DNA from: Scyliorhinus canicula
Lineage: Eukaryota
DNA: 64,000 nt
Reading direction: 5' to 3'
Assembly (NCBI RefSeq): GCF_902713615.1
Contig: NC_052166.1
Location: 2,342,961-2,406,960, forward strand
The position numbers were made by a program. Positions 15,001 through 18,000 of the stretch are shown here, piece after piece. The number at the start of each line of letters is the position of its first letter. Positions within the stretch are counted from its first letter, which is position 1.

Positions 15001-18000
15001 GACGCTGTGGTATCGCGCTATGATGTCATCTAATTGGGCTTGGAAGTTGACATCTGACGAGGCCGTTGCCTCTGCGGACGACATGGTGTGAACCAGCTGC
15101 ACAAGATTCAGGAGTTTGCAGGCCCGAGCACCGAGCAGGGAAGCTCTGTCAGGTCCGAGCACCGAGCAGGGAAGCTCTGTCAGGTCCGAGCAGGGAAGCT
15201 CTGTCAGGCCCGAGCACCGAGCAGGGAAGCTCTGTCAGGCCCGAGCACCGAGCAGGGAAGCTCTGTCAGGCCCGAGCACCGAGCAGGGAAGCTCTGTCAG
15301 GCCCGAGCACCGAGCAGGGAAGCTCTGTCAGGCCCGAGCAGGGAAGCTCTGTCAGGCCCGAGCAGGGAAGCTCTGTCAGGCCCGAGCACCGAGCAGGGAA
15401 GTGCTGTCAGGCCCGAGCACCGAGCAGGGAAGCTCTGTCAGGCCCGAGCACCGAGCAGGGAAGCTCTGTCAGGCCCGAGCACCGAGCAGGGAAGCTCTGT
15501 CAGGCCCGAGCACCGAGCAGGGAAGCTCTGTCAGGCCCGAGCACCGAGCAGGGAAGCTCTGTCAGGCCCGAGCACTGAGCAGGGAAGCTCTGTCAGGCCC
15601 GAGCACTGAGCAGGGAAGCTCTGTCAGGCCCGAGCACAGAGCAGGGAAGCTCTGTCAGGCCCGAGCAGGGAAGCTCTGTCAGGCCCGAGCACCGAGCAGG
15701 GAAGCTCTGTCAGGCCCGAGCACCGAGCAGGGAAGCTCTGTCAGGCCCGAGCACCGAGCAGGGAAGCTCTGTCAGGCCCGAGCAGGGAAGCTCTGTCAGG
15801 CCCGAGCAGGGAAGCTCTGTCAGGCCCGAGCACCGAGCAGGGAAGCTCTGTCAGGCCCGAGCACCGAGCAGGGAAGCTCTGTCAGGCCCGAGCACCGAGC
15901 AGGGAAGCTCTGTCAGGCCCGAGCACCGAGCAGGGAAGCTCTGTCAGGCCCGAGCACCGAGCAGGGAAGCTCTGTCAGGCCCGAGCACTGAGCAGGGAAG
16001 CTCTGTCAGGCCCGAGCACCGAGCAGGGAAGCCCTGTCAGGCCCGAGCACCGAGCAGGGAAGCTCTGTCAGGCCCGAGCACCGAGCAGGGAAGCTCTGTC
16101 AGGCCCGAGCACCGAGCAGGGAAGCTCTGTCAGGCCCGAGAAGGGAAGCTCTGTCAGGCCCGAGCACCGAGCAGGGAAGCTCTGTCAGGCCCGAGCACTG
16201 AGCAGGGAAGCTCTGTCAGGCCCGAGCACCGAGCAGGGAAGCTCTGTCAGGCCCGAGCACCGAGCAGGGAAGCTCTGTCAGGCCCGAGCACCGAGCAGGG
16301 AAGCTCTGTCAGGCCCGAGCAGGGAAGCTCTGTCAGGCCCGAGCACCGAGCAGGGAAGCTCTGTCAGGCCCGAGCACCGAGCAGGGAAGCTCTGTTGGTT
16401 CCTACAATTTCAAATCGCAGCGTTGCTTTTGAAGAACGATGGGATACCACAGGCTGGCATGAGCCACTGGCAGCAATGGCATTGCCATTGTAGTCGAGGA
16501 GCTGGCAGGCCGGTGGAAGAATGTGTCCAATCTCACATCTGACATGTGGCAGGCTCCCAACACAGCGGTGCTTCCCTCCATGTCCATCCAACACGGCAAA
16601 GGTGCTTCAGGGTGATGTATGAGGATCACCGAGTTTTACAGCACACAAGGAGACCATTTAGTCCATTTAGTCCGTGCTAGAAAGCTGCTGAGGTCGCGGG
16701 AATGTTCGCCAATCCGTATTCAGGAATCTAGCTGATTCTGTCAGAGGGTTTTTCCTGCTCTGTTGCTCTTTCTGGGGAAGGTTAAAATGTTTGTCCTTCA
16801 CTCTTCTGCAGCCAAGCCGTCCGTCAACATAACCGTGCACCGCTTGCCCAGCAAGAAGGAACTCTTGCTCCTCATCTGCCGCATGGACGGATTTTACCCA
16901 AGTGGCTTCAACGCAACCTGGCTGCTCAATGGTGATGAGGTCGAGCAGGAGGTGTTGAGTAGCAGTGTTTTACCAAACATGGATGGGACATTCCAGTCCA
17001 CTCTGCAGATCACTATTACCCCCAGGAGCGGCGATGCCTACAGCTGCCAAATGGAGCACAGTAGCAGCCCTGACAAACTAACAGCAACTTGGGGTAAGTC
17101 CTCTCCCACAATCGATTGAGACGCAAAGAAGCATCACCTGGTCTCTCACTGGCCCAAGTGGGCCAGGAAAATTAGCATCTTTTGATGCTTGCATTGATTT
17201 ATTGCTCTGTGTAATCTTAGATGTAAATAAATTTACCTGTTCATTTTTTAGCCTGAAAGAGATGATTTACCTGTGATGTTTGCTGTGATTACAGTCAATG
17301 TGAGGATTATTTTGGGACTAAAGGAGCATTTTTAATGTATAAGACTTCAGGGCACGAGTATAGACGGATGTTGTGATTCACAAGGTGTTTGAAACTCTAT
17401 TTAATTAAAATGTCACTCTGCCTCGCCAGAGGCTCTTCAATAGTTTTCAGTGCCTCTGGGGTACAAAGGGAGGGCGGAGACTTCAGCCTATTTCAATTCT
17501 GAGACTGGGTTTAGGCGAGGGTAGTTGTAGAGGATCATCCATGAGCTAAGTGAATGTGGGTGGAACAGGCTTGAAGGGTTGAATGGCCTCTTGCTCTGCT
17601 CTGATTGGCACGGGGTGAGACAATATTGTGTCTGGTAATGGCCCCACCCTCTACTGAGGTTCAGGAGAGGAGGAGAAGGTCAGAGGGCAACCAGGTCCCA
17701 GGGAACATAAACCCTGTTGACTTCAGGGAGCGAGGTAAGGAGATGTTGGAGAATCTATTACAATAGCCAGGATCCATGTTGGTCAGACTTAACACAGGTC
17801 AGTCATGCGTGGGATTTTATGCCCCCCCTCCCTCACCATATGGGATATTTTCCAGCGCCATTGGCCTGAGGCGGGATCTTCTGCTCCCGTTGATGTGACT
17901 GGCTCTTTACACTGTTCGCTAATCGTGTGGCCAGGGAATGGGATGATCACACTGGAAAATTCAGCCCCCTGCTTTTGTGCAGTTTTGGGCAGGGAGGATG

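What the first reader, a model, noticed from the sequence alone, without database searches (positions are those of the whole stretch)
16812..17093. Beta-chain Ig exon with class I alpha3-type interface residues (WB-like)
Seen: VLPNMDGTFQ matches class I alpha3 P235-x-x-D238-G239-T-F-Q242, whereas class II beta2 has Trp here (NGDWTFQ). It complements the W60/Y10 residues of the WA alpha2 exon 45 kb away and has two N-glycosylation sequons (NIT, NAT). Inference: WB beta2 domain. A classical or non-classical class I alpha3 exon cannot be excluded from this exon alone.
Basis: partly seen in the sequence, partly recalled or inferred. Interest (0 to 1): 0.65.

Follow-up and report, generated by a model that had tools for sequence, protein, structure and literature searches.

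The report
Shark W-category MHC beta-chain exon

Summary
The exon is real and sits exactly at 16812-17093 (+). It has AG/GT borders, phase 1-1, and encodes a C1-set Ig domain (Pfam E 4.6e-15). It is 100% identical to a Scyliorhinus canicula protein that NCBI names "class II DR-1 beta chain-like".

The Pro-x-x-x-Gly interface motif is present, but most class I alpha3 domains share it. Four other results decide it:
- Three downstream exons (CP/TM and two cytoplasmic) match only the W-like group: 11 of 12 W-like proteins and 0 of 146 others.
- The nearest relatives carry a single short membrane-distal domain.
- The domain falls in a W-like clade in 184 of 200 bootstraps.
- A WA gene with the beta2-microglobulin-like Tyr/Phe/Trp residues lies in the same window.

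Verdict: a W-category WB beta2 exon. W-type genes in this species' genome are already reported (PMC8713811, PMC10751288).

Two local oddities remain. No leader or beta1 exon is found in the 16.8 kb upstream. WB and WA are tail-to-tail, with stop codons 1,039 nt apart, not the published head-to-head pair.

The parts
16812..17093 (+). WB beta2 exon (C1-set Ig domain), the finding itself
   Evidence: AG/GT borders, phase 1-1, 282 nt. Pfam C1-set E 4.6e-15. 100% identical to P0001. AlphaFold model pLDDT 91.0.
18432..18536 (+). WB connecting-peptide / transmembrane exon
   Evidence: AG/GT borders, phase 1-1, read. tblastn to P0001-P0006. Contains GxxxG. Matches 11 of 12 W-like proteins and 0 of 146 others.
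27908..27994 (+). WB cytoplasmic exon 1 (absent from the paralogue model P0002, annotated as isoform X2)
   Evidence: AG/GT borders read. 100% identical to P0001 residues 138-167. Hits only W-like proteins, 3 of 158.
29079..29146 (+). WB last coding exon, including the stop codon TAA at 29144-29146
   Evidence: Read. 100% identical to P0001 residues 166-188. Hits only W-like proteins, 5 of 158.
30186..30236 (-). WA last coding exon including its stop; convergent with WB, stop codons 1,039 nt apart
   Evidence: tblastn to P0155 residues 245-260, 100%. Sequence read.
42920..43041 (-). WA connecting-peptide / transmembrane exon with CxxGxxxGxxGxxxG
   Evidence: tblastn to P0155 residues 202-247. 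Borders and motif read. The motif criterion comes from passages of PMC13399432.
61520..61798 (-). WA alpha2 exon (beta2-microglobulin-like C1-set domain)
   Evidence: AG/GT borders, phase 1-1. Pfam C1-set E 5.6e-16. 100% identical to P0155. Tyr, Phe-for-Trp and F-x-x-x-W read.
63420..63665 (-). WA alpha1 exon (membrane-distal domain); the leader exon is not in the window
   Evidence: tblastn to P0155 residues 28-110, 98.8%. Borders read.
700..827 (+). Tentative alpha-chain-type CP/TM exon or relic (GxxxGxxGxxxG, without the upstream Cys), upstream of WB on the same strand
   Evidence: AG/GT borders in phase 1. phmmer E 1.3e-3 to WA protein P0156 among 1,451 six-frame pieces with 13 queries. 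The Atlas gave no usable hit. Weak evidence.

Best explanation
The exon encodes the membrane-proximal beta2 Ig domain of a W-category MHC beta chain (WB) of the small-spotted catshark.

**Proposed mechanism.**
- The domain sits next to the membrane and pairs side by side with the beta2-microglobulin-like alpha2 domain of a WA chain.
- Its Pro (position 57 in the published numbering) contacts the conserved Tyr of WA alpha2, as class I alpha3 contacts beta2-microglobulin.
- Its Gly at position 61 replaces the Trp that conventional class II beta2 pushes against the platform.
- The next exon supplies a beta-chain-type GxxxG transmembrane helix that pairs with the WA helix.
- The result is a class-II-shaped heterodimer held together by class-I-type interfaces. 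It is probably non-classical, and its ligand is unknown.

**Shown here:** the exon, its fold class, the two residues, the downstream exons, its nearest relatives and their architecture, and a WA gene in the window.

**Inferred from the literature:** the contacts, the heterodimer and surface expression. These were shown only for salamander recombinant chains (PMC8713811).

**Open:** whether this particular copy still has a leader and a beta1 exon.
For: - **Exon and domain:**
- **Species and annotation:** 100% identical to an S. canicula protein, with a 98% identical paralogue on the same 71-Mb contig that has leader + one distal domain + Ig + TM.
- **Downstream exons:** CP/TM, CY1 and CY2 are found on the same strand. 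They match only W-like proteins. The TM exon matches 11 of 158 proteins, all W-like.
- **Per-domain scores:** the W-like group scores 89-201 bits. The best class II beta scores 71.1 and the best class I 68.7.
- **Tree:** NJ tree of 122 domains and 91 columns; the W-like clade of 11 domains is recovered in 184 of 200 bootstraps.
- **Interface residues:** Pro in 11 of 11 W-like domains and Gly in 10 of 11.
- **Distal domain of relatives:** sub-threshold Pfam matches to the alpha2 part of MHC_I in 5 of 7. MHC_II_beta is above its cut-off in 2 of 7.
- **Structure:** model pLDDT 91.0. All 50 listed PDB fold matches are class II chains, TM-score 0.77-0.93.
- **Atlas:** the ten listed cluster sets for the full-length paralogue are all class II families.
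- **WA gene:** in the window, with Tyr, Phe-for-Trp, F-x-x-x-W and CxxGxxxGxxGxxxG.
- **Published definition:** PMC8713811, Results and Discussion read in full.
Against: - **No leader or beta1 exon in the readable window.** tblastn gave its best E at 0.49. phmmer with 13 queries found none. A profile of 7 W-like N-terminal parts gave its best E at 14 among 2,879 pieces. The class-II-type architecture is therefore shown for relatives, not for this copy.
- **The annotated model is not a complete chain.** P0001 starts at an ATG 25 nt inside the upstream intron and has no signal peptide.
- **Orientation.** WA in the window is convergent with WB, not head-to-head as published (PMC8713811 Fig. 5 legend).
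- **No named reference.** No sequence named WB by its authors could be placed in the tree. Database names say 'class II beta chain-like', and the accession tables are in closed supplements.
- **Limits of the tree.** The comparison set was chosen by similarity to the query, and no shark class I or class II sequence is labelled in it. The sister of the W-like clade is unresolved: class-II-beta-like in 93 of 184 replicates and mixed otherwise. The paper also reports low resolution for this domain group.
- **Limits of the fold match.** The preference for class II may partly reflect the 4 class II rows in the 17-row alignment used for the model.
Confidence: 0.9

Rival explanations
1. Same family, but a dead or partial copy. 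This would be a 5'-truncated duplicate of a WB gene that kept the beta2, CP/TM and cytoplasmic exons and lost leader and beta1. It could make no normal beta chain.
For: - No leader or beta1 exon in the 16.8 kb upstream.
- By my sum of the rows, about 8.7 kb of the 12.9 kb between 3882 and 16811 is tandem-repeat array.
- Two of the three N runs there are flanked by arrays on both sides; the third (399 N) has low-complexity sequence on its left and about 200 nt of non-repeat sequence on its right. The runs look like unresolved repeats, not hidden exons.
- The annotated model P0001 begins in the intron and lacks a signal peptide.
- A possible alpha-type TM exon on the same strand at 700-827 would leave no room for WB 5' exons further upstream, unless genes interleave.
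- A 98% identical full-length paralogue exists on the same contig, so a recent duplication is plausible.
Against: - All four exons are open with canonical splice sites, and the beta2 acceptor is strong.
- Introns at this locus are very long: 18.5 kb in WA and 9.4 kb in WB. A beta1 exon could lie beyond the window start.
- The 700-827 exon is weakly supported (one search gave nothing).
Confidence: 0.35
2. A class I (classical or non-classical) alpha3 exon.
For: - Pro and Gly at the two interface positions, as in 44 of 47 and 35 of 47 class I alpha3 domains.
- The top PDB sequence hits include MR1 and H-2 alpha3.
- Historically, an exon of this kind from banded houndshark was first read as class I-like (PMC8713811).
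Against: - No alpha1/alpha2 exon in the window: a class I heavy chain used as query hit only Ig exons.
- The TM and tail exons match 0 of the 37 proteins that carry a class I alpha1-alpha2 stretch.
- Relatives 47-98% identical in this domain have a single distal domain.
- The W-like clade excludes all 69 class I-associated domains in 184 of 200 bootstraps.
Confidence: 0.03
3. A conventional class II beta2 exon, as the database name 'DR-1 beta chain-like' suggests.
For: - The NCBI names of P0001-P0006.
- The best structural matches are HLA-DR/DP/DQ beta2.
- The exon structure and a GxxxG transmembrane helix are of the beta-chain type.
Against: - Gly, not the Trp described as invariant in conventional class II beta2 (PMC8713811).
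- Pro at position 57, found in 1 of 8 class-II-beta-like domains.
- The distal domains of 5 of 7 relatives fall below the MHC_II_beta cut-off.
- The TM exon matches none of the class-II-beta-like proteins in the set.
- The neighbouring alpha gene is of the WA type, not class II alpha.
Confidence: 0.03

Closest known systems
W-category MHC beta chain (WB), first described from banded houndshark, teleosts, lungfish, coelacanth and salamanders (PMC8713811); W-type genes reported as multicopy in the S. canicula genome (PMC10751288)
   Same: - C1-set beta2 exon with Pro57 and Gly61 and no Trp61.
- Beta-chain-type CP/TM exon with GxxxG.
- Relatives with leader + one distal domain + Ig + TM.
- A WA gene with Tyr8, Phe37, Phe57 and Trp61-type residues and CxxGxxxGxxGxxxG close by.
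- Multicopy: a 98% identical paralogue lies on the same contig.
   Different: - This copy shows no leader or beta1 exon in the 16.8 kb upstream.
- The adjacent WA is tail-to-tail with it (stops 1,039 nt apart), not head-to-head.
- No author-named WB sequence could be compared directly.
MHC class I heavy chain alpha3 domain (e.g. MR1 and H-2 chains among the PDB hits)
   Same: - Pro-x-x-x-Gly at the positions that face beta2-microglobulin and the platform.
- Similar sequence scores: 55 bits to MR1 alpha3, 68.7 bits to the best class I representative.
   Different: - No alpha1/alpha2 exons.
- The transmembrane and cytoplasmic exons are unrelated to those of the class I proteins in the set.
- Separate clade.
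Conventional MHC class II beta2 domain (HLA-DR/DP/DQ beta, chicken BL-2 beta)
   Same: - Exon organisation (Ig exon followed by a CP/TM exon).
- Best predicted-fold matches, TM-score up to 0.93.
- Similar sequence scores, 64-75 bits.
   Different: - Gly in place of the Trp61 described as invariant.
- Pro57 present.
- The distal domain of relatives is mostly below the Pfam MHC_II_beta cut-off and also resembles class I alpha2.

Membership tests
W-category beta chain (WB) | Membrane-proximal C1-set Ig domain on its own phase 1-1 exon | tested here: met
W-category beta chain (WB) | Pro at position 57 (four residues before position 61), as in class I alpha3 | tested here: met
   Present in the window exon and in 11 of 11 W-like domains. 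Criterion from PMC8713811.
W-category beta chain (WB) | No Trp at position 61; mostly Gly | tested here: met
   Gly in the window exon and in 10 of 11 W-like domains, counting it.
W-category beta chain (WB) | Class II-type architecture: leader, ONE membrane-distal domain, Ig domain, CP/TM/CY | tested here: inconclusive
   The downstream half is met. Leader and beta1 are not found in the window. The feature is met in 7 of 7 relatives that have an N-terminal part.
W-category beta chain (WB) | Beta-chain-type transmembrane region with a GxxxG motif | tested here: met
   Read. Criterion from passages of PMC13399432. Dataset S3 of PMC8713811 was not seen.
W-category beta chain (WB) | WA gene linked, published as a head-to-head pair | tested here: inconclusive
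   A WA gene is in the window, but it is convergent with WB. A head-to-head partner would lie outside the window.
W-category beta chain (WB) | beta1 domain with class I alpha2-type residues | not testable with these tools
   The exon is absent from the window. In relatives, Pfam MHC_I (alpha2 part) matches sub-threshold in 5 of 7. A W-like beta1 profile finds the alpha2 domain of a class I chain, 13.3 bits.
W-category beta chain (WB) | Groups with author-named WB sequences in a tree | not testable with these tools
   No named WB sequence was returned by any search. The W-like clade has 184 of 200 bootstrap support, but its members are unnamed or named 'class II beta-like'.
W-category beta chain (WB) | Forms a heterodimer with WA at the cell surface | not testable with these tools
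   Shown for salamander recombinant chains only (PMC8713811).
MHC class I heavy chain | alpha1 and alpha2 exons upstream of the Ig exon | tested here: not met
   A class I chain (P0123) used as query found no alpha1/alpha2 piece among 1,451 six-frame pieces. Relatives have one short distal domain.
MHC class I heavy chain | Pro57 / Gly61 interface residues | tested here: met
   The feature is shared with WB, so it does not discriminate.
Conventional MHC class II beta chain | Invariant Trp61 in beta2 | tested here: not met
   Gly in the exon. Criterion from PMC8713811.
Conventional MHC class II beta chain | beta1 domain recognised as Pfam MHC_II_beta | tested here: inconclusive
   No beta1 exon in the window. 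Among 7 relatives, 2 are above the cut-off of 20.9 bits, 4 have sub-threshold matches and 1 has none listed.

The most novel reading that the evidence does not exclude
This unit of the catshark W cluster is rearranged. The WB copy has lost its leader and beta1 exons, while its Ig, transmembrane and tail exons stay open and spliceable. It lies tail-to-tail with a WA gene only about 1 kb away. An alpha-chain-type transmembrane exon relic sits upstream on the same strand. If so, it would be a documented case of birth-and-death turnover, a 'headless' beta chain or pseudogene, inside the W family, which is described so far only as intact pairs.
Probability: 0.3. Interest if true: 0.35.

Novelty: already known. 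Interest (0 to 1): 0.22.

Why it matters
W-category molecules are the proposed intermediate between MHC class II and class I: a class II layout with class I interfaces (PMC8713811). According to that paper, an exon of exactly this kind from another shark was long an enigma because it looked like class I alpha3.

The value here is confirmation. A reader without tools recognised the right family from two residues, and the gene context bears it out. For genome annotation, the public names of this gene and its neighbour ('DR-1 beta chain-like', 'A-K alpha chain-like') hide their W identity. The annotated protein of this copy also starts inside an intron. Nothing here changes what is known about the family.

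Tried and rejected
- **Diagnostic columns.** I looked for columns that separate class I from class II beta and asked which state the exon has. Only 2 columns passed my thresholds. The exon agreed with class I at one (the Gly) and with neither at the other. This was too few to use.
- **Full-length paralogue search.** A word-index search with P0002 returned only 5 proteins, all already known to me. It gave no named WB, class I or class II sharks.
- **Ranking of the representative search.** The whole-protein ranking is dominated by long multi-domain predictions. I re-scored by single domain.
- **Atlas on the 42-residue TM-like exon at 700-827.** No usable hit.
- **The listing of cluster members for accessions and names of P0001, P0002 and P0155.** Accessions and gene symbols stay unknown.
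- **Rfam on the whole window.** 0 matches at gathering scores.
- **LTR search.** It mostly returned one 23-nt array listed 13 times, plus one 91-nt repeat pair.
- **Bacterial/archaeal genome collection.** Not used, since it is irrelevant to a shark gene.
- **Joined spliced model.** I did not build or search a joined model of the window's exons. Each exon was searched on its own.
- **N runs.** Left as they are.
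Full report
**The window.** It is 64,000 nt with eight N runs totalling 1,888 N. I left these untouched. Proteins encoded by its exons are 100% identical to NCBI proteins of Scyliorhinus canicula, the small-spotted catshark. The window is therefore shark sequence, and I took no contig for human.

**The observation.**
- One search shows an acceptor AG at 16810-16811 and a donor GT at 17094-17095. The exon is exactly 16812-17093: 282 nt, phase 1 at both ends, with 93 full codons and no stop.
- Its translation contains the quoted stretch VLPNMDGTFQ and two N-x-T sequons.
- It is a C1-set immunoglobulin domain: Pfam E 4.6e-15, 56.2 bits against a cut-off of 21.
- An AlphaFold model built on a 17-row alignment is confident, with mean pLDDT 91.0 and pTM 0.80. 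It shows six strands, fewer than a full Ig sandwich.

**Does the domain alone say which class?** No.
- Against PDB sequences, 3,277 distinct chains match at E ≤ 0.01. Among the 60 shown, MR1 and H-2 class I alpha3 and HLA-DR/DP beta2 score alike. No chain is named W-category.
- In the 1.84-billion-protein representative library, 2,016 proteins match at E ≤ 0.001.
- Re-scored by single domain, the best class II beta domain gets 71.1 bits and the best class I domain 68.7.
They are in 11 of 11 and 10 of 11 W-like domains, counting the window exon.
- The 8 class-II-beta-like domains all have Trp at the Gly position, but I labelled them by that Trp. Pfam confirmed MHC_II_beta for only 2 of them.

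**What decides it is the context.**
1. *Nearest relatives.* The exon is 100% identical to P0001 and 98% to P0002, both catshark and on the same 71-Mb contig. It is 86, 73, 71 and 57% identical to proteins of four other sharks. All are named class II beta chain-like or hypothetical. A further set of unnamed proteins is 47-58% identical.
2. *Architecture of the relatives.* In the 7 relatives that have an N-terminal part, only 83-135 residues precede the Ig domain. That is room for a leader and one distal domain. The class I comparator has 206 residues there.
3. *Distal domain of the relatives.* It gives sub-threshold Pfam matches to the alpha2 part of MHC_I in 5 of 7. MHC_II_beta is above its cut-off in 2 of 7, sub-threshold in 4, and not listed in 1. 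That is the mixed character published for WB beta1.
4. *Downstream exons.* The window holds three more exons of the same gene on the same strand: CP/TM at 18432-18536, cytoplasmic at 27908-27994, and last coding at 29079-29146 with the stop.
The TM exon matched 11 proteins, all W-like (11 of 12; the twelfth has no TM). The two tail exons matched 3 and 5 proteins, all W-like. None of the 146 other proteins matched.
6. *TM motif.* The TM exon carries GxxxG, as stated for the W-category beta chain in PMC13399432 (passages).
7. *Tree.* A neighbour-joining tree of 122 Ig domains over 91 columns puts the window exon in a W-like clade of 11 in 184 of 200 bootstraps. The sister group is unresolved: class-II-beta-like in 93 of those 184 and mixed otherwise.
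8. *Structure.* The 50 listed PDB fold matches are all class II chains, mostly beta, with TM-score 0.77-0.93.
9. *Atlas.* For the full-length paralogue, the ten listed cluster sets are all class II families.

**The partner-type gene.**
- On the minus strand lies a gene 100% identical to catshark protein P0155, named 'class II A-K alpha chain-like'.
- Its exons are alpha1 63420-63665, alpha2 61520-61798, CP/TM 42920-43041 and last coding 30186-30236. Its leader exon is not in the window.
- The alpha2 exon has the Tyr near its start, Phe where Ig domains keep a core Trp, and F-x-x-x-W.
- The TM exon has CxxGxxxGxxGxxxG.
- These are the WA hallmarks given in PMC8713811 and PMC13399432.

**Orientation.** The two genes are convergent. 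The WB stop ends at 29146 and the WA stop begins at 30186, so they are 1,039 nt apart. The paper describes head-to-head pairs, and a cluster of three pairs in great white shark. In such a row, the WB of one pair meets the WA of the next tail-to-tail. That is my reading of this window, and it is an inference.

**The missing 5' half.** I found no leader or beta1 exon anywhere in the readable window.
- tblastn with four N-terminal parts gave its best E at 0.49, with no plausible match.
- phmmer with 13 full-length queries found none.
- A profile of seven W-like N-terminal parts gave its best E at 14 among 2,879 pieces. The same profile does find the alpha2 domain of a class I chain.
- Between 3882 and 16811, about 8.7 of 12.9 kb is tandem array, by my sum of the rows.
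- Of the three N runs in that stretch, two are flanked by arrays on both sides. The third (399 N) has low-complexity sequence on its left and about 200 nt of non-repeat sequence on its right.
- The annotated protein P0001 starts at an ATG 25 nt inside the intron and has no signal peptide. It is a model of a partial gene.
- A possible alpha-chain-type CP/TM exon lies at 700-827 on the plus strand. It has AG/GT borders in phase 1, the motif GxxxGxxGxxxG, and phmmer E 1.3e-3. The Atlas gave nothing for it.

Two readings remain. The 5' exons may lie beyond the window or in an N run. Introns here reach 18.5 kb, so this is plausible. Alternatively, this is a 5'-truncated duplicate of the 98% identical paralogue. 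I cannot tell which.

**How it works.**
- By homology with the published family, the domain pairs with WA alpha2 through a class I-type interface, Pro57 to Tyr8.
- It lacks the Trp61 that conventional class II beta2 uses against the platform.
- It is anchored by a GxxxG helix next to the WA helix.
- Heterodimer formation and surface display were shown only for salamander chains, and the ligand is unknown (PMC8713811).

These steps are inferred for the catshark.

**Novelty.**
- The family was described in 2021 (PMC8713811). I read the abstract, all of Results and Discussion, and Data Availability. Supplements were closed.
[quoted passage not shown] I read section 10 and passages. Its supplementary figures, which may show this very locus, were closed.
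- Three full-text searches found no other paper on W-category genes of this species.

The finding is correct and already known.

**Limits.**
- The comparison set was chosen by similarity to the query.
- No author-named WB, shark class I or shark class II beta sequence could be included.
- The tree is neighbour-joining with a simple distance.
- The joined spliced model of the window's exons was not built or searched. Each exon was searched on its own.
- Cluster membership and accessions could not be looked up.

**In passing.**
- Both genes' long introns hold retroelement-like sequence, which I only describe.
- An LTR-retrotransposon-like stretch lies on the minus strand at roughly 55,700-61,094. 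It is bounded by a 91-nt direct repeat at 91% identity.
- Its reverse-transcriptase, RNase H and integrase matches are spread over at least three reading-frame pieces. That means at least two interruptions of the pol-like gene, of a kind I did not resolve, plus one N run inside it.
- None of the three further ORFs scanned there matched a Pfam family.
- LINE-like reverse-transcriptase pieces lie in the WB intron.

Noticed in passing
window 55700-61094, minus strand: LTR-retrotransposon-like (virus-like) stretch inside the WA alpha2-to-TM intron. It is bounded by 91-nt direct repeats at 91% identity, 5,304 nt apart. Pfam RVT_1, RT_RNaseH, Integrase_H2C2 and rve matches are spread over at least three reading-frame pieces. 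That means at least two interruptions of the pol-like gene, kind not resolved. One N run lies inside it. No gag or protease was recognised in 3 further ORFs. Described only.
   Followed up: partly
window about 23860-26470 and 20270-20790, minus strand: LINE-like reverse-transcriptase remains in the 9.4-kb WB intron between the CP/TM and cytoplasmic exons. In the larger stretch, RVT_1 is split over two frames and a zf-RVT piece is present. The smaller stretch holds a separate RVT_1 fragment.
   Followed up: partly
window 700-827, plus strand: Possible CP/TM exon of an alpha-chain-type MHC gene, or its relic. It has AG/GT borders in phase 1, the motif GxxxGxxGxxxG without the upstream Cys, and phmmer E 1.3e-3 to shark WA proteins. 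The Atlas gave no usable hit. If real, a third alpha-type gene or fragment lies upstream of WB on the same strand.
   Followed up: partly
window 3882-16395: The region upstream of the beta2 exon is mostly tandem arrays: units of 22 nt (81 copies), 39 nt (29), 37 nt (75) and 31 nt (43), plus CA- and AG-rich microsatellites. Two of the three N runs there sit between arrays.
   Followed up: yes
window 53868 to about 56000: A 23-nt minisatellite. The repeat finder reports 83 shifted copies of a 300-nt reference unit, spaced 23 nt apart, mostly 92-95% identical. It abuts the retroelement-like stretch.
   Followed up: no
window 1-330 and 29600-29900, plus strand: Two copies of a SINE-like repeat sharing a long, nearly identical core, seen by eye. 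One lies in the 1-kb spacer between the WB and WA stop codons. Rfam found no family at gathering scores.
   Followed up: no
window 16787-16811: The public protein model of this gene (P0001, 188 aa) starts at an ATG inside the intron just upstream of the beta2 exon, so it has no signal peptide. This looks like an annotation artefact of a gene whose 5' exons were not found.
   Followed up: yes
window 27908-27994: This cytoplasmic exon is present in P0001, P0003 and P0004 but absent from the paralogue model P0002, which is annotated 'isoform X2'. That suggests alternative use of this exon in the family.
   Followed up: no
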